Below, one piece after another: positions 1,115-30,373 of a stretch of DNA of 30,373 nt. The position numbers and the translations under genes were made by a program. A model generated the notes under the pieces. It had not been told where the DNA came from. It ran no database searches and saw nothing but the letters and a program-made list of their open reading frames with translations. The stretch is from Deltaproteobacteria bacterium (GTDB lineage: Bacteria; Myxococcota; UBA727; VGSZ01): contig JACOUT010000005.1 of NCBI GenBank assembly GCA_016177705.1, positions 1 to 30,373 of the forward strand, given 5' to 3'. Within the stretch, counting starts at the first letter, position 1; every line of letters starts with the position of its first letter.

Positions 1115-2560
1115 ATGCCACGCACGCTCCTGCTGCTCGTCGTAGCCGCCGCCACCTGCATCGTCGCCGCGTGCAGCGTCGCGGGCCTCACCCCCATACC
1201 CCAGGCCGGGGCCACGCCCGGAGGCGTGCAAGACATGAGGCTCGCGCGCGACCTGATCGCGCACGGCCAGGTGCCGCCGCCGGAGGCGTTCGTCGTCGAG
1301 GGGATGTTCTCCGAGCACGACCTGCCGTTGGCAGGGGCGACGTGCGCGCAGGCCCTGTGCTTGCGGGCAGCGGGCGGCGTCGCGCCAAAGCACGACGGCG
1401 CGGCGCGCGGCTTCGTGCAGATCGGCATGTCGTCCGCCATCGACGCCGGCGCGTGGCAGCCGCCGCCGATGACGCTGGTGCTGACGGTCGACGTCTCGTC
1501 GTCGATGGGCTTCGAACAGGCCGACACCACGCCCGGCGAGATGAGCAGGGTGCTGCTCCGCCGAATCGCCGATCGCCTGCGCGATCAAGACCGCGTCGCC
1601 ATCGTCACCTATGGCACCACCACCACCACGGTGTTGCCCCTCACCAGCGCCACCGAGCGCGCGCGCATCTTGTCGACCATCGACGCGCTCACCACCGACG
1701 GCTCGACCAACATGGAGGCCGGCCTGCGCCTTGCCTATCAGACAGCGCCCAACGACGACGACGGCGACGGGGACGTGCGAGTGCTGCTGTTCACCGACAC
1801 GCAACCAAACGTCGGCGCAACGCAGCCAAGCGACTTCGAGGACATCGTGGCAGCCGGGGCCGCGCGCGGCGTGGGGCTGACCGTGTTCGGCATGGGCGTA
1901 GGCGTCGGCCAGGAGGTGTTCGCGGCCATGGCCAACTTCCGCGGCGGCAACGCGTTCGGCGTCATCGAGCCCGAGGACGTACCGCGCGTGCTCGACGACT
2001 CCTGGCCGTTCTTGCTGTCGCCCATCGCCAACGAGCTCGAGCTGGCGCTCACGCCGGACGGAGCGGCGACGGTCAGCGGCGCCTACGGCTTCCCCGGCAG
2101 CAGCGACGACGGCAGCGCCGGCCTGCGCGTGGAGAGCGTCTTCCTGTCAAAGCGACGCGGCGCGCTGCTGGTCGAGCTGCAGGGGCTCGCGCCCGGCTTC
2201 TCGGCCGCCGGCACGCTCCGCTACACGGTCCCGGGGGAGCCCGCGGAGGTGGAGCAGGGCATCCACGTCGAGCACGACGGCACCGTCGACGAGCGCGGAC
2301 ACGCGTACCAGCAGCCGTCGGTGGCCAAGACCGTGGCGCTGGCGCTCCTGGTCACCGGCATGCGCGAGGCCGCGCAGCGCTACCAGGACGGCGAGGCCGA
2401 CGCTGCCATCGCCGGCATGGAGGTGGTCGCTGCGCGCGTCGCGGAGGACGCCGGCGCCATCGACGACCCGGCGCTGGCGCCCGAGGTGGCGCTCGCTGAG
2501 GCGATGCTCGAGCTGCTGCGCGCCGGCGCGCCGCAGGGCAGCCTCTACGGCGGCTACTGA
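1115..2560 (+). CDS. Von Willebrand factor type A (VWA) domain lipoprotein with an intact MIDAS motif.
   Basis: This is an internal ATG of the listed 902..2560 ORF, preceded by GGAGG 7 nt upstream. The N-terminus MPRTLLLLVVAAATCIVAAC is a signal peptide with an IVAAC lipobox. The MIDAS motif D-x-S-x-S is present in TLVLTVDVSSSMG. Downstream TDG-like motifs occur in TTDGSTNMEAGL and VLLFTDTQPN. The upstream 71 codons of the ORF are Arg/Pro-rich and non-coding in character. Confidence 0.8.
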   Translation: MPRTLLLLVVAAATCIVAACSVAGLTPIPQAGATPGGVQDMRLARDLIAHGQVPPPEAFVVEGMFSEHDLPLAGATCAQALCLRAAGGVAPKHDGAARGFVQIGMSSAIDAGAWQPPPMTLVLTVDVSSSMGFEQADTTPGEMSRVLLRRIADRLRDQDRVAIVTYGTTTTTVLPLTSATERARILSTIDALTTDGSTNMEAGLRLAYQTAPNDDDGDGDVRVLLFTDTQPNVGATQPSDFEDIVAAGAARGVGLTVFGMGVGVGQEVFAAMANFRGGNAFGVIEPEDVPRVLDDSWPFLLSPIANELELALTPDGAATVSGAYGFPGSSDDGSAGLRVESVFLSKRRGALLVELQGLAPGFSAAGTLRYTVPGEPAEVEQGIHVEHDGTVDERGHAYQQPSVAKTVALALLVTGMREAAQRYQDGEADAAIAGMEVVAARVAEDAGAIDDPALAPEVALAEAMLELLRAGAPQGSLYGGY

Positions 2561-20148: not shown

Positions 20149-23238
<3,090 letters not shown>

Positions 23239-23239
23239 C

Positions 23240-24490
23240 TCAGCGCCCCTCGCGCTGCTGGCCGGCGTCCGGCTCGTCGGTGCCGGCGCCGGCGTCCCTG
23301 GGAGCTCCACCCTGCGGCACCGCCGCCGGCGCCTCCTTGGGGATGATCGGGCTGCCGTCGCGCAGCATCTGCAGCGACGAGACCGCGATGCGGTCGCCCG
23401 CGGACAGGCCGCGCTCGACGACGAAGCCGTCGGCGCCGAGGCGGCCGAGCGTCACCGGACGGCGCGTGACCACGGTTCGCGCGGGCCCGCCCGCCCCCTC
23501 GCCGGGCCGTTGCTCCGTGACGACGAAGACGAACGGTGTGCCACTCTGGCGCGTCACGGCGGTCGCCGGGATCAAGAGCGCCGCGCCGCTGCCGAAGATG
23601 ACGCGCACGCGCACCAGCTCGCTCGGTCGCAAACCGGTCACGTTGGGGAACGCCGCCTTGATGTCCACCAGCTGCGTGCGCGCGTCCGCGTGCGGCGCGA
23701 CGTAGAACACGGGCGCGCTCGCGGCGGTGGCGCCGTGCGCGTCGAGCACCTCGACGGTGGTCAGCTCGCCGAGCGCGCGCGCCCGCTCGGCGGGGATCGC
23801 CACCGTCACCTCGACGGCGGCCGCGGCGCGAGCTGCGCCCTGGTCGACCGCTCGCCCGGCGCCGATCGCGCCGTCGACGTCCGGCGCGATCGTCGTGATC
23901 TGGGTTTGTGGGGTGACCGCGTCGCCGATGCGGACCAGCACATCGCCGAGCGTGCCGCCGACCGCGGCGCGCACCGTGTGGAAGTCGACGCGCACCTCGC
24001 GCAACGCGACGCCCGCGCTCGCCGCCTGTGCGGCCGCGTCGGCGGCGGCGACCGCGGCCCGCGCCTGGTCGACCTCCTGCGCGGGCGCGAGCCCCTCGGT
24101 CAAGAGCTTCTCGGCGCGCTCGAGGTTGGTGCGCGCAAGCGAGTGGCGGGCCTCGGCGGCGGCGACGTCGGCGCGCGCGCTCAACAGCGCGGCGTTCTCG
24201 CCGCGCGCGTCGATGTCGACGAGCTGGTCGCCAGCCGCCACCGTCGCGCCCGGCTTGACGTGAATGCGGCGTACGTAACCGCCCACCTGCGGATACACGT
24301 CGATGCTCGCGCGCGACGACAGCGTGCCGAGGTAGTCGGCGGTGTCGCGTACCGTGGCGGGCGCGATCGTGAGCACCTCGACCTCGCGCGGCGCCGGCGC
24401 CTTGGCGGCCGGCTGCGGGGCGCACCCCGGCGCGGCGAGCATGGACGCGAACGACAACGCGACGATGAAGGACTTGGTCATGCTGGGCAC
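23240..24490 (-). CDS. RND efflux periplasmic adaptor subunit (membrane fusion protein) lipoprotein.
   Basis: MPSMTKSFIVALSFASMLAAPGC is a signal with lipobox. It has the coiled-coil hairpin and beta-barrel regions typical of the HlyD/AcrA family. Its ATG lies inside the last codons of the upstream OMF gene, a 13-nt overlap. Confidence 0.85.
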   Translation of the reverse strand: MPSMTKSFIVALSFASMLAAPGCAPQPAAKAPAPREVEVLTIAPATVRDTADYLGTLSSRASIDVYPQVGGYVRRIHVKPGATVAAGDQLVDIDARGENAALLSARADVAAAEARHSLARTNLERAEKLLTEGLAPAQEVDQARAAVAAADAAAQAASAGVALREVRVDFHTVRAAVGGTLGDVLVRIGDAVTPQTQITTIAPDVDGAIGAGRAVDQGAARAAAAVEVTVAIPAERARALGELTTVEVLDAHGATAASAPVFYVAPHADARTQLVDIKAAFPNVTGLRPSELVRVRVIFGSGAALLIPATAVTRQSGTPFVFVVTEQRPGEGAGGPARTVVTRRPVTLGRLGADGFVVERGLSAGDRIAVSSLQMLRDGSPIIPKEAPAAVPQGGAPRDAGAGTDEPDAGQQREGR

Positions 24491-25860
24491 CGAGCGAGCG
24501 TGAAGAAGGCGTCGAGGCGAGCGCGCAGCCAGTCGGCTTCGCGCAGCGCCAGCTCGAGCTGCGCCTGGCGGAGCACGACGCCGCTCTGCACCAAGTCGAA
24601 GCTGTCCGCGCGGCCGAGCTCGAAGGCGCGGCGCGTGAGCCGATCGAGCTCGAGCGCGAGCCCGTGCGCCTCGCGCGCCGAGTCGACCAACGCCGCGGCA
24701 GCGCGTTCGGCGCTCGCGGCGCGACGGTGCTCGAGCAGCGCGTCGCGCCGCGCGACCGCGAGCGCGGCGTCGGCGCCGAGGACGGCGCCGCTCCGTTCGG
24801 CGACCAGACCTTCACGGAAGCCGCCCTCCCAGAGCGGCACGGCGATCACGGCGGCGATCGTCCAGCTCGCGAAGCGACCTGGTCCCGGGTCGCTGGTGTA
24901 CGCGCCGACGTTGCTCGCGAGGCCGAGGGTCGGCAGGTAGCCGGTCCACGCAGCGCGGCGCGCGGCTTCGGCCGCGTCGCGGCGGGCGCGCGCCGACGTG
25001 ACGTCGGCGCGGTCGTCGACGTGCTCGCGATCGAGCGCCTGGCATGGGGCTGCCGCGTCGGCGATCAGGCCGTCGAGCGCGAATGCCGGCGAGACCGACA
25101 CCGGCTCGGCGAGGCCGAGCGCGGCGCCAAGCGCCTCGCGGGCGGTGCGCAGCGCCTCGTCGACCGTGGTAAGCGCGGTACGCGCGACCGCGACGTCCTG
25201 CTGCACGCGAACCACATCGAGCTGCGAGGCGGCCCCGAGCGCCACCAGGCGCTCGGTGAGCGCGGCGCGTTCGAGCGCCTGGCGAAGGCCGGTGCGGCCG
25301 ATCTCGGCGATGCGCTCCGAGGACGCGGCAGTGGCGACCGCGCGAGCGAGCACCCTCGTTTGGCGGCGACGCACGTCCTCGACGCTCGCCTCGGCGGCTC
25401 GCGTCGCGGCGTCGGCCACGTCGAGGGCGCTCCAGGCCGACAGGTCGACGACGGACTGCCGCAGCGTTGCGCCTGCGGAGCCGAGCGGCGCGGTGGGGGC
25501 GGGCGCAGCCGAGCCGGAGAACAGCGCGTTGCCGAGGTTGACGCCGCCCGCCGGCACCGGGCTCGCCGGGTTGAGCACGTCGTAGCCGACGCCGGCGGTG
25601 AGGGCCGCGTGCGGCAACAAACTCGACAACGATTGACGCCACCGACCCTGCGCCTGGACAACGGCGGCCTCAGCAGCGCGGAGGTCGAGCGAGCCCTCGT
25701 CGAGCAGCCCTCGCGCTTCGCTCCACGTCGACAGCGTGATCAGGGCGGGCGGCACGGGCGCGAGCTGCGGGTCGTCGGCGTGCCCGGCCGCAGCGGCGAC
25801 CAGCGGGCAGATCATCAGTGCTGCGATTCGGTGCGCGGGCATGCTGTGGTGTTCTTGCAT
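24478..25860 (-). CDS. TolC-family outer membrane efflux factor.
   Basis: It has two tandem OEP-type repeats, a Leu/Ala/Arg-rich coiled-coil composition and a signal peptide MPAHRIAALMICPLVAAAAGHA. The start is chosen as the ATG at 25860, with an alternative at 25842. The listed ORF extends spuriously to 25968. Confidence 0.8.
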   Translation of the reverse strand: MQEHHSMPAHRIAALMICPLVAAAAGHADDPQLAPVPPALITLSTWSEARGLLDEGSLDLRAAEAAVVQAQGRWRQSLSSLLPHAALTAGVGYDVLNPASPVPAGGVNLGNALFSGSAAPAPTAPLGSAGATLRQSVVDLSAWSALDVADAATRAAEASVEDVRRRQTRVLARAVATAASSERIAEIGRTGLRQALERAALTERLVALGAASQLDVVRVQQDVAVARTALTTVDEALRTAREALGAALGLAEPVSVSPAFALDGLIADAAAPCQALDREHVDDRADVTSARARRDAAEAARRAAWTGYLPTLGLASNVGAYTSDPGPGRFASWTIAAVIAVPLWEGGFREGLVAERSGAVLGADAALAVARRDALLEHRRAASAERAAAALVDSAREAHGLALELDRLTRRAFELGRADSFDLVQSGVVLRQAQLELALREADWLRARLDAFFTLARCPA

Positions 25861-25936
25861 ATTGACGACCCGAGCACTGCTTGGATGTGGGCGGCGGCTC
25901 TCGGTTGCGCCGGCGGCGTTCGGTTGTGGCAACGAG

Positions 25937-26020
25937 GTATCCGTCGGGCCAACCCCGTCCGGCGACAACCACTACCGCGACATGTGGTTCACCGTCGGAC
26001 GGGGTTGGCCGGACGGATAC
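25937..26020. promoter_or_regulatory. Nested dyad-symmetry element: 28-bp arms GTATCCGTCGGGCCAACCCCGTCCGGCG / CGTCGGACGGGGTTGGCCGGACGGATAC with 2 mismatches, flanking a 28-bp spacer that itself contains the AACCAC...GTGGTT palindrome. Candidate regulatory or structured element upstream of the efflux operon.
   Basis: Read directly from the sequence. The arm motif CCGGACGGATAC occurs a third time at 26361..26372. The element sits 77 bp upstream of the TolC-like start, where one would expect a TetR-type or similar operator, but no adjacent regulator gene is present. Confidence 0.4.
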
Positions 26021-26042
26021 TGACAGCGGCCGCGTTGACAAG

Positions 26043-26319
26043 GTGAAACGTGCCGATGCGTCGCGGCCGATCCTTGCGTGCGATTTTTCTTGGGCAAGGC
26101 ACGAGTTCCGGGACACCGAGACGGGCACGAAGATCGACGAGGCCCTTGGCTACCTCGTGCGTCAGCGCCTCCCGCTCCGGCGGTTCCTCGAGGACGCGAT
26201 GCTTCGCTTGGACAACAAAGCTCGCCCCGACGAACTGGAGCGAGACCCTCGCCAAGCCGGCAACCCAGGCGCTCCTCGATGAGCTGAGGCTGCTCCGCGA
26301 CGAGGACGCCTCGGCGTAG
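26043..26319 (+). pseudogene. Possible frameshifted small ORF in a locally lower-GC patch. Identity unknown.
   Basis: Frame A (GTG 26043) reads ...ILACDFSWARHEFRDTETGTKIDEALGYLVRQRLPLRRFLEDAMLRLDNKARPDELE with good GC3, then decays. Frame +1 takes over near 26225-26235, around an AAA run, with high GC3: ...WSETLAKPATQALLDELRLLRDEDASA*. Neither frame alone gives a convincing gene. The region is visibly less GC-rich than its flanks. Confidence 0.25.
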
Positions 26320-26416
26320 TCAGCGTGCGCGACCGAGCAGCCCTCGTCCTGACGCGGTTCCCCGGACGGATACACGCAACTGGATCAGCTCCCAACCAAG
26401 GCGGATCCGTGCCCGC

Positions 26417-26445
26417 TTGCATCGCGAAGGCGCGTTCACTAATAC
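26417..26445 (+). promoter_or_regulatory. Candidate sigma70-type promoter for arsR: TTGCAT, 17 bp, TAATAC. It would give a leaderless or near-leaderless transcript.
   Basis: The hexamers are at 26417-26422 and 26440-26445. The arsR ATG at 26454 has no SD sequence. The -10 element overlaps the operator palindrome. Confidence 0.3.
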
Positions 26446-26465
26446 AGAACCATATGGTTCAGTAT
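26442..26465. promoter_or_regulatory. 24-bp near-perfect palindrome ATACAGAACCAT|ATGGTTCAGTAT centred exactly on the arsR start codon. Putative ArsR/SmtB-type autoregulatory operator.
   Basis: 11 of 12 base pairs are symmetric. It contains a TGAAC half-site as in SmtB/CzrA-type operators. It overlaps the putative -10 element and the translation start. Confidence 0.5.
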
Positions 26466-26813
26466 CGCGGCGCCCGCCTCGATCTCTCGTTCGCCGCGCT
26501 CTCGGACGCGACCCGCCGCGGGATCCTCGAGCAGCTCGGGCGCGCAGACGCGTCGATCACGGATCTCGCGGAGCGATTCGCGATGAGCCTCACGGGCATG
26601 AAGAAGCACGTCCGCGTTCTTGAGGAGGCGGGCCTCGTCGCGACGAAGAAGGTCGGGCGCGTGCGCACGTGCAAGCTCGGCCCGCGCCAACTGCAAGAAG
26701 AGACGGCGTGGCTCGAACGACACCGCGCGACGTGGGCCGCGCGCTTCGACGACCTCGACAAGGTGGTCGCAGAGATGAAACAGAGGGAGACGACCCATGG
26801 ACGCAAGAAGTGA
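26454..26813 (+). CDS. ArsR/SmtB-family winged-helix transcriptional regulator.
   Basis: It is 119 aa. The HTH ITDLAERFAMSLTGMKKHVRVLEEAGLV matches the ArsR recognition helix pattern. It is an internal ATG of the listed 26325..26813 ORF. It overlaps the downstream AHSA1 gene by 17 nt. Confidence 0.85.
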   Translation: MVQYRGARLDLSFAALSDATRRGILEQLGRADASITDLAERFAMSLTGMKKHVRVLEEAGLVATKKVGRVRTCKLGPRQLQEETAWLERHRATWAARFDDLDKVVAEMKQRETTHGRKK

Positions 26814-27300
26814 AACCGTGAAGAACCCGACGACTTCGGAGCGCAAGTCCGACCGCGAGATCGTTGTCACGCGCACCGTTGATGCGCCTGCGCGCGTCGT
26901 GTTCGAGGCGTGGACCAAGCCCGAGCTGCTCAGGCGCTGGTGGGCGCCGAAGTCGATCGGGATCTCGTTCGTGTCGTGCGAGGCCGACGTACGCGTCGGC
27001 GGGAAGTACCGCTTCGTCTTCAGCCACCCTGCGTCGGAGCAGCCGGCGGCGTTCTTTGGCAGGTACCTCGAAGTCAAGCCGTACGTGCGCCTCGTGTGGA
27101 CGAATGAAGAAGCGGGTGACGCGGGTCAGGTCACCACCGTCACGTTCGACGAGCAGAACGGCAAGACGCGCGTCGTCGTGCACGATCTCTACTCGTCGAA
27201 GCAAGCGCTCGACGACGCCATCGCGTCCGGCAGCACGATGGGGATGGACGAGATGTTCGTGCAGCTCGACGCGCTGCTCGTGGCCCTCGGTGTGAGCTAG
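26797..27300 (+). CDS. SRPBCC-superfamily protein, AHSA1 (activator of Hsp90 ATPase homolog)-like domain.
   Basis: VVTRTVDAPARVVFEAWTKPELLRRWWAPKS...VGGKYRFVF...YLEVKPYVRLVWT is typical of the AHSA1 family. SD AGGGAGA lies 7 nt upstream. The ArsR + AHSA1 pairing is common. Confidence 0.85.
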   Translation: MDARSETVKNPTTSERKSDREIVVTRTVDAPARVVFEAWTKPELLRRWWAPKSIGISFVSCEADVRVGGKYRFVFSHPASEQPAAFFGRYLEVKPYVRLVWTNEEAGDAGQVTTVTFDEQNGKTRVVVHDLYSSKQALDDAIASGSTMGMDEMFVQLDALLVALGVS

Positions 27301-27325: not shown

Positions 27326-27328
27326 AAC

Positions 27329-27358
27329 GTGCCCGTGCCCGTGCCCGTGCCCGTGCCC
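27329..27358. repeat. (GTGCCC)5 perfect hexanucleotide microsatellite in the intergenic region upstream of the large lipoprotein gene.
   Basis: Directly visible as gtgcccgtgcccgtgcccgtgcccgtgccc. It is non-coding here. A hairpin GAGGCGGG-CT-CCCGCCTC at about 27552-27569 overlaps the GGAGG SD of the downstream gene. Confidence 0.9.
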
Positions 27359-27579
27359 GAGCGCCGGTCGAGTCGCTCAGGGCACCCGCGAGCGCGAGCC
27401 AGCGGTGCCTTGCCAGGTCAGCGCCTCGGCGAGCACGAGAGGTGTCAACGAAAGCAGGTCACCTGCACCTGCACGACGGCACCCCTCACGTGCTTTCTTG
27501 AGAGATGCCACGGCGTGGCACCAACCGGTTCGCATTTCTAGGATGCGGAGGAGGCGGGCTCCCGCCTCGGGGGGGCTTC

Positions 27580-30373
27580 ATGCGCGGGCCATTGCTGCTC
27601 ACGGCCTTCATGTTCGTGTTGGCTTGTCCGGCCCTGTTGGACGGCGGGGGCGAGGAGGGCGAGGGCGAAACAAGCGAGGGTGAGGGAGAGGGCGAGGGCG
27701 AGGGAGAGGGTGAGGGTGAGGGAGAGGGTGAGGGAGAGGGTGAGGGTGAGGGCCTACGCTTCGGCGGCATCGCGCACGTCGTCGCGGATGGCACCGGCGC
27801 AGTGGTCGTGACCTGGCTCGAGGCGGTCGACGACGTCACCGCGCACGCGCAGATGAGCTACCACCTGTACCGCGACGACAGCGAGGCCGCCGTGATCGCG
27901 CAGGTCGACGGCGGTGGAGCGCCCGTTGCCACATTCACGGGTGTCACGCAGAGCACGATCACGGGCCTGAGCGCGGGCCAGACGATCTGGCTGTTGGTCG
28001 TCGCCCAGGACGGCGATGGCAACACCAGCAGCGACCGGCGCGCGGTCCCCGCCACCACGGCATCTGTTCCGCTGGTCTTGCGCGCCCCCGTGACCGACCT
28101 GTCGACCCTCGACGTCGCCGTGACCGAACACGGCGTGGACGCGTTCACGGTCGTCGGTCCTGACGCTGCTGCGCTCGCGGTCGGCGACCTCATCATCGTA
28201 GACAACACGTTTGGTCGAACGCTGCGCCGGATCATCGCCTACGCCGGCAGCGGACCTGACTTCGCGATGACAACCGAGAAAGCCGACCTGATGGCCGCGA
28301 TCCAGTCGGGCGAGGTGCGCGCGTCCGCTGTGATGGTGTCCCCCGAGACCAGCGGGCTGTCGGGCCAGGCCGCCGGACACTGGTCGCGCCGCTACCACGA
28401 TGACAGCACGGGCTTGTCCATCACCGAGAGCGGCACGCGCCGCGTCGACTTCCTTGAGACCGACGGCGTCGCGCCATTGGCGGTCGATGACCTCGAAGAC
28501 GGCATCACGCTCGAATACGAGATGGGTTTCGAGCCGAGCTTCGAAGCGATCGTGCGCTTCAGCGACAGCTTCGTCGACACTCCGGAGTCGATCCGCATGA
28601 CGGCTACCGGGGCGTTCACGGTGCACGGCCTCGCTGCGTTCCAGACCTCGGGCGAGCTCGAAGTGGAGAAGGAGAAGGAGCTGCTCTCGCGCACGTTCCG
28701 CATGGTCTACGCGGTGGGCGGAGTTCCCGTGTACCAGGAAGTCATCCTCACGTTGATGGGAGCCGTGGAGCTCAACGCCGCCAGCAGCTTCGTCGCCGCC
28801 ATGGAGGTCGACGCGGAGAAGACCTTCACGTTCGGCTTTCAGTGGAATGAAGCGAGCGGTGCGCAGCTGATCCGCGAAGACGGCTTCACCCAGGAGACCA
28901 CCTTCACGCTCACCAGCGACGCGGAGGCCTCCGTCACGCTCAAGGTCTATCCGGTCATCAAGACGCGCTTCTACAAGGTCGCATCGGCGTCGCTCGAGGT
29001 GGTACCGCAGCTCACCGCGGAGGCACGAGCGCGCTTCCTGCCGCTGCCCGTGGAGCTCGAGAAGGCCGACGTCGACTTCGTCGTCGACGCCGGTGTGGAG
29101 CTCGACCTGTCGATCTTCTCGAAGAACCTGTGGAAGTGGGAGAGCCCGCGCGTGGAGCTGTACCGCGTGCCAATACACAGCCAACCCGAGATCAAAGCGA
29201 TGGCGACCACGACCACCGGCAACACGTGTCACCCGTTGTCGTTCTTCCTCGGCATCCAGGATGGGTACCTGAACAAGGTGCTACCGGAGAACATCGGGCT
29301 CGCTGTCTCGCCGCCAGGCCCGGTGCTGTCCATCATCGGCGTCCGCGGCGAGATCGAATCGAGCATGCCCGGCACCTTCGAGGTGCAGGTGAGCGCGTAC
29401 GGTGACGGCGTGCTCGGTCCCATCGGCGCGCGCCACACGACATTCGAGGTGACGTTCGAGGACGCGGGTCTGCCCTGCGATCAGGTGCCGCCGCCGGGCG
29501 CCGGCCGCGCGCTCAGCTGCCTTCTGGACGTCGAGAGCGGGCTGATCGCGCCGCCATATTTCTCGCAGGATCGGATCGAAACGCCGATGCCCACGCTGGT
29601 CGCCGGCGGCCCCTGGTTGATGCTGCCGATGCGCATGGTGCGACCCATGACGCTCTCTTTGCTCATCTACTACGACGACCAGGGAGGCGCTTGGGAGAGC
29701 GGCGGCGGAGGACCCATCGGCCTCTTCGAGCCGATGCCATTCGAGGGCGTCATCCAAGTCCCGTTCATCCTCGAGAACGGCTTCACGACCTATAACGCCC
29801 CGCCGCGCGTGTACCGGCCGGCCATGTGGCTCGATGACTGCGAGACGCCGTCACCGTATGTGCTCTGCGAGAGCACGCAGTGGTGGTTCCTCACGCCCGG
29901 CACCTCCGGTGGCTTGCCGTTCCCTGACACGTACGATGTGACCACCGGCCGGCTCGGTGACGACGTCACCTCCAGTGCTGACGACGAGGCCTGCTACAAC
30001 CAGCCCACCGGGATCCCGATCCCCACCTTCGAGCTGGTGGGGCCGCGCGCGATCGCCGACCGCGACGACACTCCAGCGGGCGCCACCAGCCTTCAGCAGT
30101 TCGTGCGCGTGCGCAAGAGCGGCGGCGGCAGCGACGACGACTTCTTCCGCTTCGACCCGGCCGAGAACACACCGGGTGGGCCCGTTGTGTTCGATCAGAC
30201 TCCACCCGCGCCGCTCGAGGAGGGCTGCATGGTGGTCGTGCGCGCGGCGCTGGAGGCAGGCGGCACAGCGCCGCACCTCAAGGTGCACGACGGCGAGGCG
30301 GGCGCCGCGGCCGACAACGCGATCGTCGCCGAGGGCGACGGCGAGGTGTCGTTCCTGCCGAACCCCACGCACG
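27580..30373 (+). CDS. Large secreted lipoprotein (>930 aa, 3' end beyond the window). It has a signal peptide with lipobox, an ~17x Glu-Gly linker, an FN3-like domain, then a large beta-rich region.
   Basis: MRGPLLLTAFMFVLAC has an LAC lipobox. It is followed by PALLDGGGEEGEGETSEGEGEGEGEG...LRFGGIAHVVADGTGAVVVTWLEAVDDVTAHAQMSYHLYRDD...ITGLSAGQTIWLLVVAQDGDGNTS, an FN3-like W/Y/ITGL/GN.S pattern. The frame stays open to position 30373 with strong GC3 bias. The track shows no terminated plus ORF in this frame because it runs off the window. The listed 27754..29232(-) 492-aa ORF is its antisense shadow. Confidence 0.7.
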   Translation, partial: MRGPLLLTAFMFVLACPALLDGGGEEGEGETSEGEGEGEGEGEGEGEGEGEGEGEGEGLRFGGIAHVVADGTGAVVVTWLEAVDDVTAHAQMSYHLYRDDSEAAVIAQVDGGGAPVATFTGVTQSTITGLSAGQTIWLLVVAQDGDGNTSSDRRAVPATTASVPLVLRAPVTDLSTLDVAVTEHGVDAFTVVGPDAAALAVGDLIIVDNTFGRTLRRIIAYAGSGPDFAMTTEKADLMAAIQSGEVRASAVMVSPETSGLSGQAAGHWSRRYHDDSTGLSITESGTRRVDFLETDGVAPLAVDDLEDGITLEYEMGFEPSFEAIVRFSDSFVDTPESIRMTATGAFTVHGLAAFQTSGELEVEKEKELLSRTFRMVYAVGGVPVYQEVILTLMGAVELNAASSFVAAMEVDAEKTFTFGFQWNEASGAQLIREDGFTQETTFTLTSDAEASVTLKVYPVIKTRFYKVASASLEVVPQLTAEARARFLPLPVELEKADVDFVVDAGVELDLSIFSKNLWKWESPRVELYRVPIHSQPEIKAMATTTTGNTCHPLSFFLGIQDGYLNKVLPENIGLAVSPPGPVLSIIGVRGEIESSMPGTFEVQVSAYGDGVLGPIGARHTTFEVTFEDAGLPCDQVPPPGAGRALSCLLDVESGLIAPPYFSQDRIETPMPTLVAGGPWLMLPMRMVRPMTLSLLIYYDDQGGAWESGGGGPIGLFEPMPFEGVIQVPFILENGFTTYNAPPRVYRPAMWLDDCETPSPYVLCESTQWWFLTPGTSGGLPFPDTYDVTTGRLGDDVTSSADDEACYNQPTGIPIPTFELVGPRAIADRDDTPAGATSLQQFVRVRKSGGGSDDDFFRFDPAENTPGGPVVFDQTPPAPLEEGCMVVVRAALEAGGTAPHLKVHDGEAGAAADNAIVAEGDGEVSFLPNPTH
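27652..27753. repeat. GAGGGY / GAGGGA hexamer repeat encoding the (Glu-Gly)n linker of the 27580 lipoprotein.
   Basis: Directly visible as gagggcgagggcgagggagagggtgagggtgagggagagggtgag.... The same repeat class, on the opposite strand and in a different gene, occurs at 559..722. Confidence 0.9.

What the first reader, a model, noticed from the sequence alone, without database searches (positions are those of the whole stretch)
26442..26465. 24-bp palindrome centred exactly on the arsR start codon (CAT|ATG): autoregulatory operator on a leaderless promoter
ATACAGAACCAT|ATGGTTCAGTAT is symmetric at 11 of 12 positions, and its centre is the first base of the ArsR ORF. A plausible TTGCAT-17-TAATAC promoter ends 8 bp upstream, implying a leaderless mRNA. 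No SD is present. The operator therefore overlaps the -10 element, the +1 site and the start codon at once. A bound ArsR dimer would occlude both RNA polymerase and the ribosome. This is a compact example of ArsR/SmtB autorepression, and the half-site (TGAAC) could be used to find the rest of the regulon.
Basis: seen in the sequence. Interest (0 to 1): 0.5.

Follow-up and report, generated by a model that had tools for sequence, protein, structure and literature searches.

The report
Self-repression site straddling arsR start codon
A 24-base mirror-image DNA site sits exactly on the start codon of a small ArsR-type regulator gene and is kept almost letter for letter in at least 80 species from many phyla, so it is very probably the regulator's own binding site on a promoter whose mRNA has almost no leader.

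Summary
The palindrome is real: 26442..26465, ATACAGAACCAT|ATGGTTCAGTAT, 11 of 12 positions symmetric. It is the only A/T-rich palindrome of this quality in a 71% G+C window.

In 80 related genomic loci the consensus is a perfect 10-4-10 repeat, ATACTGAACC-N4-GGTTCAGTAT. The start codon lies in the 4-bp spacer. The window's single mismatch (A at 26446) is unique to this copy.

Several results point to a DNA site read by the cis-encoded ArsR:
- The right arm forces rare codons (GTT, TAT).
- Arm changes are never compensatory.
- The recognition-helix motif M(S/T)LTGxxKH(V/I) co-occurs with the site down to about 40% protein identity.

A leaderless or near-leaderless mRNA is predicted:
- A conserved TTGC box lies 29-34 nt upstream.
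- No Shine-Dalgarno motif precedes arsR in any of 81 loci, while 68 of 70 downstream AHSA1 genes have one.
- Relatives with GTG starts show TTGnnn-N17-nATACT.

The gene pair is the known ArsR-COG3832 (AHSA1) module. Its closest studied relative is M. tuberculosis Rv2034, with an 8-4-8 operator just upstream of the start codon.

Three side claims fail or lack support: ribosome occlusion, metal sensing and a wider regulon. Binding and the transcription start are untested.

The parts
26417..26422 (+). -35-like box TTGCAT
   Evidence: A TTGC box (TTGCAT in 48 loci) lies 29-34 nt (mode 32) upstream of the start codon in 80 of 81 loci. It matches only 3 of 6 positions of the E. coli TTGACA and is not called by the promoter scan.
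26440..26446 (+). -10 region: TAATAC (26440..26445, 17-nt spacer) or AATACA (26441..26446, 18-nt spacer), overlapping the left operator arm
   Evidence: Relatives with GTG starts show TTGnnn-N17-nATACT, often with TGn in front, and three loci carry a perfect TTGACA. Any candidate hexamer places the start between -4 and +1 of the ATG. This step is inferred.
26442..26451 (.). left operator arm ATACAGAACC (consensus ATACTGAACC)
   Evidence: Information content is 1.5-1.9 bits at -12..-3 and falls to 0.11 at -13. The A at 26446 occurs in 1 of 81 loci; 79 have T.
26452..26455 (.). 4-bp spacer (ATAT) holding the first two bases of the start codon
   Evidence: Positions -2 and -1 are free to vary, at 0.70 and 0.37 bits. 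In metagenome loci the spacer instead carries the first two bases (GT, TT or CT) of GTG, TTG or CTG start codons.
26456..26465 (.). right operator arm GGTTCAGTAT, which is the G of ATG plus codons 2-4 (Val-Gln-Tyr)
   Evidence: Information content is 1.4-1.9 bits at +3..+12 and falls to 0.23 at +13. Codon 2 is GTT in 77 of 81 loci, against 20% of Val codons elsewhere. Codon 4 is TAT in 69 loci, against a TAC:TAT ratio of 62:3 elsewhere.
26454..26813 (+). arsR: 119-aa ArsR/SmtB-family winged-helix regulator without metal-site motifs
   Evidence: Pfam HTH_20 7e-12 and HTH_5 above its cut-off. NCBIfam NF033788 scores 56.7 against a cut-off of 55. The AF2 model shows a wHTH fold whose best PDB matches are ArsR-family chains. 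The protein is 100% identical to P0001, a 119-aa MAG Deltaproteobacteria entry.
26783..26789 (+). Shine-Dalgarno GAGGGAG for the second gene, inside the 3' end of arsR
   Evidence: An SD-like 4-mer lies in front of the AHSA1 start in 68 of 70 loci, against 0 of 81 in front of arsR.
26797..27300 (+). AHSA1/SRPBCC (COG3832) partner gene, overlapping arsR by 17 nt
   Evidence: Pfam AHSA1 1.2e-21. A homologue lies immediately downstream, usually overlapping, in 78 of 80 loci; the other two are cut by contig ends.

Best explanation
The 24-bp element is the operator of the ArsR-type repressor that starts at its centre.

Proposed mechanism (inferred): a winged-helix homodimer reads the two arms ATACTGAACC and GGTTCAGTAT. 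The TGAAC and GTTCA cores are 11 bp apart centre to centre, about one helical turn, which suits two recognition helices in successive major grooves. The A/T-rich ends are available to the wings.

Promoter and transcript (inferred): the left arm doubles as the -10 region of a promoter whose -35-like box lies 29-34 nt upstream of the start codon. Transcription therefore starts within the 4-bp spacer or at the start codon. The resulting arsR-AHSA1 mRNA has a 0-4 nt leader and is translated without a Shine-Dalgarno sequence. The second gene uses an SD inside the arsR 3' end and overlaps arsR.

Regulation (inferred): the bound repressor covers -12..+12 and blocks RNA polymerase, giving negative autoregulation of a self-contained two-gene module. 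Because the right arm is also codons 1-4, the operator fixes the N-terminal peptide M-V-Q-Y.

What is shown here: the conservation pattern, the codon bias, the lack of covariation, the protein/site co-occurrence and the gene pairing. What is not shown: physical binding, the transcription start, and the inducing signal. The inducer is unknown and is probably not a metal.

The window's copy carries a unique T-to-A change at -8 (26446). This should weaken both the left arm and the nATACT hexamer.
For: Position and conservation:
- All 80 species-level loci, with 70-84% identical ArsR and record titles spanning Myxococcota, Chloroflexia, Alpha- and Gammaproteobacteria, Acidobacteriota, Gemmatimonadota, Planctomycetota, Propionibacteriaceae and Eisenbacteria, carry the site on the start codon. 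The 16-base core is exact in 58 of them.
- The information profile is symmetric, with sharp edges at -12 and +12 and a free centre.

DNA-level constraint:
- Synonymous-site constraint acts on codons 2-4. The T at +12 is kept in 80 of 81 loci even when residue 4 changes to Phe, His, Ser or Cys.
- Residues 1-7 have pLDDT below 50.

Site read as DNA, not RNA:
- No pair shows a change on both sides. There are 27 broken cells, and the shuffles equal the observed values.

Start codon and spacer:
- In metagenomes the same arms flank GTG (59), TTG (4) and CTG (3) start codons of arsR homologues at roughly 50-85% identity.
- In 31 of 81 loci the centre ATG is the first possible start after an in-frame stop.
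- GenBank annotation of R. etli pRetIE4803a starts at the centre ATG.

Link to the cis-encoded protein:
- A clade at about 40% identity has the site 0-10 nt upstream of the start and still keeps M(S/T)LTGxxKH(V/I). Paralogues without the site and PDB relatives differ in this motif.

Promoter and leader:
- The TTGC box is conserved and no SD is present in any of 81 loci.
- TTGnnn-N17-nATACT occurs in 20 of 35 distant-clade promoters, and TGn in 21 of 50.
- L133 shows the same operator/-10 in front of a normal SD-led AHSA1 gene.

Precedents:
- Rv2034 footprints on CCGTAAGT-N4-ACTTACGG at -30..+3 and autorepresses Rv2034-Rv2035 (PMC3338718).
- Leaderless arsR mRNA has been mapped in C. metallidurans (PMC7563307).
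- The half-site resembles the 12-2-12 example AATACCTGAACA (PMC8790569).
Against: - There are no binding data and no TSS data for any member of this clade.
- The window's hexamers match the E. coli consensus at only 6 of 12 positions, and the scan calls no promoter.
- In the ATG clade the commonest spacing from the TTGC box to nATACT is 19 nt. A different hexamer (TAnATA, 17 nt) must then be assumed.
- Taxon labels of most loci come from MAG record titles and may be wrong.
- One of the six peptide patterns used to fetch loci was the N-terminus. Residues 5-8 differ in nearly all loci, so most were probably found through other patterns.
- The covariation test has little power because the arms hardly vary.
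Confidence: 0.8

Rival explanations
1. The site is a real ArsR operator, but the mRNA is not leaderless. Transcription starts further upstream from another promoter, and arsR is translated by some other SD-independent route. The operator would then act as a roadblock or as a distal repression site.
For: The window's promoter hexamers are weak and the scan finds nothing. The spacing from the TTGC box to nATACT is 19 nt in most ATG-clade loci. In the window the arsR frame stays open upstream to a GTG at 26325.
Against: The TTGC box is conserved at a fixed distance in 80 of 81 loci. Cross-locus sequence similarity stops about 45-70 nt upstream of the ATG in most loci, so little else is shared that could serve as a promoter. 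TTGnnn-N17-nATACT, with TTGACA in some loci, appears in relatives. In R. etli the whole intergenic gap is 61 bp. SD-like motifs are absent from all 81 arsR upstream regions but present in front of 68 of 70 AHSA1 genes.
Confidence: 0.12
2. The palindrome acts as an RNA hairpin in a longer transcript. The hairpin would hide the start codon in its loop and stem and so control translation, for example as a thermometer or an RNase III site.
For: The RNA would fold. The window's hairpin is -8.6 kcal/mol (z -3.2), and the perfect version in L034 is -19.1 kcal/mol (z -7.9).
Against: No compensatory change occurs in 78 distinct sequences. The 27 broken cells are tolerated, and the covariation score equals the shuffles. 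The conserved sequence is the specific half-site, not merely pairing. A promoter placed immediately upstream would leave the left arm untranscribed. The site tracks a protein recognition-helix motif. The half-site resembles known ArsR/SmtB operators.
Confidence: 0.04
3. The palindrome is a recombination or mobile-element site, such as a transposon end or att-like site, linked to the horizontal spread of the arsR-AHSA1 module.
For: The module is found in many phyla and on 137 plasmid records. A sub-threshold IS66 transposase remnant lies directly upstream in the window. A subset of loci share a further non-coding element, and in L067 that element follows a tRNA-3'-like sequence.
Against: Cross-locus similarity starts about 45-140 nt upstream of the palindrome, so the site is inside the conserved unit rather than at its edge. 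No second copy flanks the module. None of the 9 viral-contig matches is near arsR or AHSA1.
Confidence: 0.03
4. The palindrome is a chance or codon-driven coincidence with no function.
For: None beyond the fact that short palindromes occur by chance. The window holds three others, all G/C-only.
Against: None of 300 simulations gave an A/T-rich palindrome of this quality. The site is near-invariant in 80 loci, including its non-coding arm and the synonymous sites of its coding arm.
Confidence: 0.01

Closest known systems
Rv2034 (ArsR-like) with Rv2035 of Mycobacterium tuberculosis; operator CCGTAAGT-N4-ACTTACGG (Gao et al. 2012, PMC3338718)
   Same: The regulator is ArsR-family, lacks a classical metal-sensing role, and is followed by an overlapping SRPBCC/AHSA1-type gene. 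The operator has the same 8-4-8 inverted-repeat geometry. It lies on the gene's own promoter, and the footprint reaches the start codon (-30..+3). Autorepression was shown experimentally.
   Different: The half-site sequence is different. The Rv2034 operator ends 3 nt before the GTG start, with its centre about 13 nt upstream, so no part of it is coding. Here the start codon sits in the spacer and the right arm is codons 1-4. Rv2034 also has reported trans targets (phoP, dosR); none was found here.
ArsR-COG3832 (Aha1/AHSA1) two-gene modules, proposed TA-like mobile stress modules (Makarova, Wolf and Koonin 2009, PMC2701414)
   Same: The gene pair and order are the same, metal motifs are absent, and the distribution is patchy and multi-phylum. 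The pair is mostly chromosomal with some plasmid copies.
   Different: That work described the gene pair only. It defined no operator, promoter or leaderless architecture. Toxin/antitoxin activity is unproven there and untested here.
SmtB/CzrA/AztR-type 12-2-12 operators, for example AATACCTGAACA-GA-TGTTCAAGTATT (PMC8790569)
   Same: The arms are built from ATAC...TGAAC and its complement, the total span is about 24-26 bp, and the site overlaps the promoter or start region of the repressed operon.
   Different: The TGAAC and GTTCA cores are separated by 6 bp here, against 4 bp in that example, and ATAC abuts TGAAC directly. Those regulators sense metals through alpha3N or alpha5 sites that this protein lacks.
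Leaderless mRNAs of autoregulated transcription factors: arsR, ohrR and others in C. metallidurans CH34 (PMC7563307); lambda cI from PRM and C.PvuII (my own knowledge, not checked here)
   Same: A regulator gene is transcribed with a 5' UTR shorter than 5 nt, with its control sites on top of the start.
   Different: I am not aware that those cases have a single dyad operator centred on the start codon with one arm serving as the first four codons. I did not verify this.

Membership tests
ArsR/SmtB family transcription factor (protein) | Sequence match to family models above the curated cut-off | tested here: met
   NCBIfam NF033788 scores 56.7 bits against a cut-off of 55. Pfam HTH_5 scores 24.4 against 22, and HTH_20 has E 7e-12. 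PDB 3f6o, an ArsR-family chain, matches at E 2.4e-19.
ArsR/SmtB family transcription factor (protein) | Winged-helix fold a1-a2-a3-aR-b1-b2-a5 | tested here: met
   The AF2 model (mean pLDDT 76.5) has helices 5-15, 18-30, 35-41 and 46-58, strands 62-67 and 70-75, and a helix 77-118. The top Foldseek PDB hits are 3f6o, 3f6v, 2oqg, HlyU, CadC, CzrA and SmtB.
ArsR/SmtB family transcription factor (protein) | Homodimer that binds an inverted repeat overlapping its own promoter | not testable with these tools
   A conserved dyad is present at the promoter and start. Dimerisation and binding need experiments.
Metal-sensing ArsR/SmtB subgroup | alpha3 ELCV(C/G)D or alpha5 Asp/His metal ligands (motifs as quoted in bioRxiv 10.1101/2022.05.14.491971) | tested here: not met
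   Read from the sequence. The alpha3 region is ASITDLA with no Cys. The alpha5 region has a single His. The only Cys (C73) lies in the wing, and the ~40% identity clade that shares the operator has no Cys at that wing position. Makarova 2009 reports the same for this subfamily.
ArsR-COG3832 (AHSA1) two-gene module | arsR immediately followed on the same strand by an AHSA1/SRPBCC gene | tested here: met
   Pfam AHSA1 1.2e-21 for 26797..27300, which overlaps arsR by 17 nt. The same arrangement holds in 78 of 80 loci.
ArsR-COG3832 (AHSA1) two-gene module | Toxin-antitoxin behaviour (toxicity of AHSA1, neutralisation by ArsR) | not testable with these tools
   This was only predicted in the literature. 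PADLOC gives no specific hit.
Rv2034-type operator | 8-bp arms separated by 4 bp on the regulator's own promoter and start | tested here: met
   ACTGAACC-N4-GGTTCAGT, compared with CCGTAAGT-N4-ACTTACGG.
Rv2034-type operator | Half-site sequence CCGTAAGT | tested here: not met
   The half-site here is ACTGAACC. It is a different specificity class.
SmtB/CzrA 12-2-12 operator | 12-2-12 spacing of ATAxxTGAACA arms | tested here: not met
   The arm content is similar, but the cores are 6 bp apart instead of 4 bp, and ATAC directly abuts TGAAC.
Leaderless mRNA | Primary 5' end at or within a few nt of the start codon | not testable with these tools
   This is predicted from the positions of the -35 and -10 elements. 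No TSS data were found for this clade.
Leaderless mRNA | No Shine-Dalgarno sequence; ATG or GTG start | tested here: met
   No SD-like 4-mer occurs in -18..-4 in any of 81 loci. The start is ATG in 81 loci, and GTG, TTG or CTG in 66 metagenome loci.

The most novel reading that the evidence does not exclude
Promoter -10, transcription start, operator and start codon are fused into one 24-bp element. This would make the arsR-AHSA1 pair a host-independent, self-limiting expression cassette. It needs no host-specific Shine-Dalgarno pairing because leaderless translation works across bacteria, and it brings its own repressor. That design would explain why the module, including its non-coding control region, is found nearly unchanged in many phyla and on plasmids. 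On this reading the invariant N-terminal MVQY is an operator-encoded peptide with no protein function of its own.
Probability: 0.3. Interest if true: 0.6.

Novelty: new member of a known kind. Interest (0 to 1): 0.45.

Why it matters
- It gives a concrete, testable operator (ATACTGAACC-N4-GGTTCAGTAT) and a matching recognition-helix motif (M(S/T)LTGxxKH(V/I)). These apply to a very large, uncharacterised clade of ArsR-AHSA1 modules common in soil bacteria and metagenomes; the protein search hit its 8000-candidate limit.
- It is a clean natural example of a DNA-binding site dictating the first four codons of the protein that binds it, with the start codon placed in the operator's spacer.
- It corrects automatic naming. 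These proteins are annotated as metalloregulators, yet they lack the metal sites.
- It helps start-codon annotation. Several database entries carry upstream extensions that read through the left arm (..ILNHMVQY..).
- If the portability idea holds, the element is a compact, broad-host, self-limiting expression unit.

Tried and rejected
- Sigma-54 reading of the conserved cTTGCAt box as a -12 element. By reading the sequences, the upstream GG is poorly conserved, is one base out of register, and is absent from the window. Rejected.
- RNA hairpin. It folds well but shows no covariation. Rejected as the main function.
- Regulon search. There is no second site in the window at up to 4 mismatches. 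Only 9 weak extra matches occur in 377 kb of related loci. The metagenome scan was designed to exclude ATG-centred sites. It returned 66 arsR genes with other start codons at the centre, about 20 more distant arsR genes with the site at or just upstream of the start, one orphan AHSA1 gene (L133), a few sites cut at contig ends, and about a dozen A/T-rich or terminator-like palindromes with no arsR nearby.
- Phage carriage. The 9 viral-contig matches have no arsR or AHSA1 nearby.
- Literature search for the motif string, for ArsR with SRPBCC, and for ArsR with Hsp90-ATPase activator and leaderless. Nothing relevant was found. The Brucella ArsR6 paper prints no site sequence in its text.
- Published TSS data for a carrier of this clade. 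I considered the rhizobial plasmid copies but did not pursue them further.
- PADLOC (generic wHTH hits only) and Rfam (no hits).
- Conserved neighbours. Six-frame ORF clustering of the flanks shows that only arsR and AHSA1 are shared by all loci.

Full report
**1. The observation**

Window 26442..26465 reads ATACAGAACCAT|ATGGTTCAGTAT. Eleven of twelve positions are symmetric. The exception is A26446 opposite A26461, and the symmetry stops at 12 bp per arm. The centre falls immediately before the A of the ATG at 26454.

That ATG opens a 119-aa ORF (26454..26813) with ArsR-type winged-helix domains: HTH_20 at E 7e-12, HTH_5 above its cut-off, and NCBIfam NF033788 above its cut-off.

The window is 71% G+C. 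Its three other palindromes of this quality are pure G/C runs. In 300 Markov simulations none produced an A/T-rich palindrome of this quality. The conserved core with up to 3 mismatches occurs once in the window, against 0.05 expected.

They match the E. coli consensus at only 6 of 12 positions, and the promoter scan calls nothing.

**2. What surrounds it**

The next ORF (26797..27300) overlaps arsR by 17 nt. It is an AHSA1/SRPBCC protein (Pfam E 1.2e-21) and is preceded by GAGGGAG at 26783..26789.

Upstream lie a weak, sub-threshold IS66 transposase remnant (25881..26282 region, 21.6 bits against a cut-off of 23.1) and a minus-strand RND efflux operon.

The ArsR protein is identical to a 119-aa entry from a Deltaproteobacteria MAG. 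It has thousands of relatives; the search hit its 8000-candidate limit, and the best 120 are 76-100% identical and mostly 119-121 aa.

These relatives begin MVQ(Y/H). Entries with longer called ORFs read ..ILNHMVQY.., which is the translated left arm.

**3. Comparative test**

A scan of one genome per species returned 80 loci with 70-84% identical ArsR. By record title they come from Myxococcota, Chloroflexia, Alpha- and Gammaproteobacteria, Acidobacteriota, Gemmatimonadota, Planctomycetota, Propionibacteriaceae and Eisenbacteria, plus isolates of Sorangium, Caulobacter and Mesorhizobium.

Every locus has the site on the start codon. The 16-base core is exact in 58.

The information profile is symmetric:
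- 1.4-2.0 bits at -12..-3 and +1..+12.
- 0.70 and 0.37 bits at -2 and -1.
- 0.11 and 0.23 bits at -13 and +13.

The consensus is therefore a perfect 10-4-10 repeat, ATACTGAACC-N4-GGTTCAGTAT. The window's A at -8 (26446) is unique: 1 of 81 loci has A and 79 have T.

**4. The constraint is on DNA**

- Codon 2 is GTT in 77 of 81 loci, whereas GTT is 20% of Val codons in the rest of these genes.
- Codon 4 is TAT in 69 loci, whereas Tyr elsewhere is TAC 62 to TAT 3. Mean GC3 is 82%.
- When residue 4 changes (Phe, His, Ser, Cys), the T at +12 is kept.
- Residues 5-8 are hypervariable, and the AF2 model gives pLDDT below 50 for residues 1-7.

The first four codons thus look like an operator arm that happens to be translated.

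**5. DNA site or RNA hairpin**

The RNA would fold (-8.6 kcal/mol in the window, -19.1 for the consensus form). However, among 78 distinct sequences no pair has a change on both sides, 27 cells are simply broken, and shuffled controls equal the observed scores. Each arm is conserved as a sequence, which is what protein recognition predicts. The test has limited power because variation is scarce.

**6. Link to the cis-encoded protein**

I scanned metagenome contigs with a pattern that excludes ATG-centred sites (TACTGAACCBNBNGGTTCAGTA). The 103 loci sorted as follows:
- 66 have the site centred on a GTG (59), TTG (4) or CTG (3) start codon of an arsR homologue at roughly 50-85% identity.
- About 20 belong to a clade at about 38-52% identity (mostly 38-46%), where the same site lies 0-10 nt upstream of the start or the codon at the centre is not a start codon. 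In one of these (L155) the site appears instead to belong to a GTG-start arsR that runs off the contig edge.
- The remaining 17 have no arsR called next to the site. Most are A/T-rich or terminator-like palindromes. A few are cut at contig ends. One is L133, described in section 7.

All clades that carry the site keep M(S/T)LTGxxKH(V/I) at the start of the recognition helix. Second arsR paralogues in the same contigs that lack the site differ there (LSRFGVMKH, ITKQAVSKH). So do the nearest PDB relatives (MALPSFMKH, VSRQAIAKH, MSFAAVQKH). This co-occurrence is the best available computational evidence that the adjacent ArsR is the binder.

**7. Promoter and leader**

- A TTGC box (TTGCAT in 48 loci) lies 29-34 nt (mode 32) before the start codon in 80 of 81 loci. 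No SD-like 4-mer lies at -18..-4 in any of the 81.
- By contrast, 68 of 70 downstream AHSA1 genes have AAGGAG- or AGGGAG-type motifs.
- In 31 of 81 loci the centre ATG is the first possible start after an in-frame stop. In 22 of them that stop is a TAA or TAG at -15..-13.
- In the more distant GTG clade the promoter is clearer. TTGnnn-N17-nATACT occurs in 20 of 35 unique sequences, three loci have a perfect TTGACA, and TGn precedes the hexamer in 21 of all 50 unique alternative-start promoters. There the -10 hexamer is the outer part of the left arm.
- L133 shows the same arrangement: TTGTGCAATACT and the operator drive an orphan AHSA1 gene that has a normal AAGGAG leader.
- In the ATG clade the modal spacing fits TAnATA (17 nt) better than nATACT (19 nt). 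In the window the options are TAATAC (17 nt) or AATACA (18 nt).

Every option puts the start between -4 and +1, so a 0-4 nt leader is the expected outcome. This step is inference. I found no TSS data for the clade. Leaderless arsR and other regulator mRNAs have been mapped in C. metallidurans.

**8. Mechanism**

The TGAAC and GTTCA cores are centred 11 bp apart, which suits a winged-helix dimer on one face of the DNA. The ATA and TAT ends are candidates for wing contacts. This follows from the established geometry of ArsR/SmtB and NolR complexes and is not tested here.

A dimer on -12..+12 would exclude RNA polymerase and give negative autoregulation of the two-gene operon. It would not occlude the ribosome. 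The ribosome meets mRNA, and a leaderless mRNA carries only the right arm.

The effector is unknown. The protein has no ELCVC-type alpha3 site and no alpha5 His/Asp site. Its single Cys (C73, in the wing) is invariant in the close clade, but the ~40% clade that shares the operator has no Cys at that wing position. Makarova et al. likewise note that the COG3832-linked ArsR subfamily lacks metal motifs. The SRPBCC partner may be the sensor or a co-regulator; this is speculation.

**9. Comparison with what is known**

The gene pair is the ArsR-COG3832 module that Makarova et al. (2009) proposed as a TA-like or mobile stress module.

The only studied relative I found is M. tuberculosis Rv2034-Rv2035. 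Its DNase I footprint covers -30..+3, its operator is CCGTAAGT-N4-ACTTACGG, and it autorepresses. The 8-4-8 geometry is the same. The half-site differs, and that operator ends 3 nt before the start codon instead of straddling it.

The arms also resemble the SmtB-type 12-2-12 example AATACCTGAACA-GA-TGTTCAAGTATT, but with 6 bp rather than 4 bp between the cores.

I found no paper that holds this motif.

I file the finding as a new member of a known kind, an ArsR autorepressor operator, with an unusual register.

**10. Distribution**

Only arsR and AHSA1 are shared by all loci. Non-coding similarity begins about 45-70 nt upstream of the start, and at about -140 in a subset that shares a further 95-nt element across phyla. 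The module is also on 137 plasmid or chromid records, mostly rhizobial. It is not on the viral contigs that match the core. This fits horizontal spread of a unit that includes its own control region. MAG labels are a caveat.

**11. Verdict**

- The main interpretation is supported by comparative evidence, at about 0.9 for the operator and about 0.75 for the leaderless or near-leaderless transcript.
- The side claims on the ribosome, metals and a regulon are not supported.
- The window's own copy deviates at -8 and has lost the upstream element to an IS66 remnant, so it may be less tightly repressed than the consensus.

Noticed in passing
window 25881..26319: A frameshifted C-terminal remnant of an IS66-family transposase lies directly upstream of the arsR promoter. 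The Pfam DDE_Tnp_IS66 match is weak (21.6 bits, just under the 23.1 cut-off). It occupies the place where related loci carry a conserved non-coding element.
   Followed up: partly
L010, L040, L017, L067, L057, L072, L034, L006, L066, L069, about -140..-45 relative to the arsR start (for example L067 2366..2460): A roughly 95-nt non-coding element is 80-93% identical between loci labelled as different phyla: GGGGATCGCCGAGTCGATCGAATCTGCATCGAAATGAGGTCGATTTGGGAGTGAAGGCGGCCGGCAACGCAGCGCGCGCTCGGCC. It contains three TCGA(A/T)(A/T)T repeats. It has no Rfam hit and is absent from the window.
   Followed up: partly
L067 2330..2365: The sequence GGTCGCTGGTTCAAGTCCAGTCGCCCCGACCA looks like a tRNA 3' end and lies immediately before the conserved upstream element. 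ARAGORN and Rfam call nothing there. It may be an island or att junction.
   Followed up: no
L133 1096..671 (minus strand) and 1118..1137: An orphan AHSA1 gene has no adjacent arsR but has the same operator 22 nt upstream of its ATG, ahead of a normal AAGGAG Shine-Dalgarno sequence. The operator is preceded by TTGTGCAATACT. This is the only non-arsR target found.
   Followed up: partly
L101, L145, L157 (metagenome loci): CTG sits at the start-codon position inside the operator spacer of arsR homologues with intact 5' portions (76-85% identical). CTG is an unusual start codon for a presumed leaderless mRNA.
   Followed up: no
window 27502..30373 (+ strand, runs off the window end): A long ORF encodes a lipoprotein-like signal (..FMFVLAC..) followed by a (GE)n repeat. 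The repeat is coded by a 6/18-nt tandem repeat at 27676..27752. A (CGTGCC)5 repeat lies at 27328..27359. I scanned only the antisense ORFs of this region against Pfam, and they gave no match.
   Followed up: no
window 20149..25968 (minus strand): An RND efflux operon lies here, made of an outer-membrane factor (24478..25968), a membrane-fusion protein (23240..24490) and an AcrB-type pump (20149..23310). It is divergent from arsR, has no operator copy, and is separated from arsR by the IS66 remnant.
   Followed up: partly
L059 1308, L068 400 and seven other weak matches in related loci: These are degenerate operator-like sequences (3-4 mismatches). Some have an ATG in the same register, for example ACTGGAACAGATGGTTCGGC. 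They may mark diverged paralogous modules.
   Followed up: no
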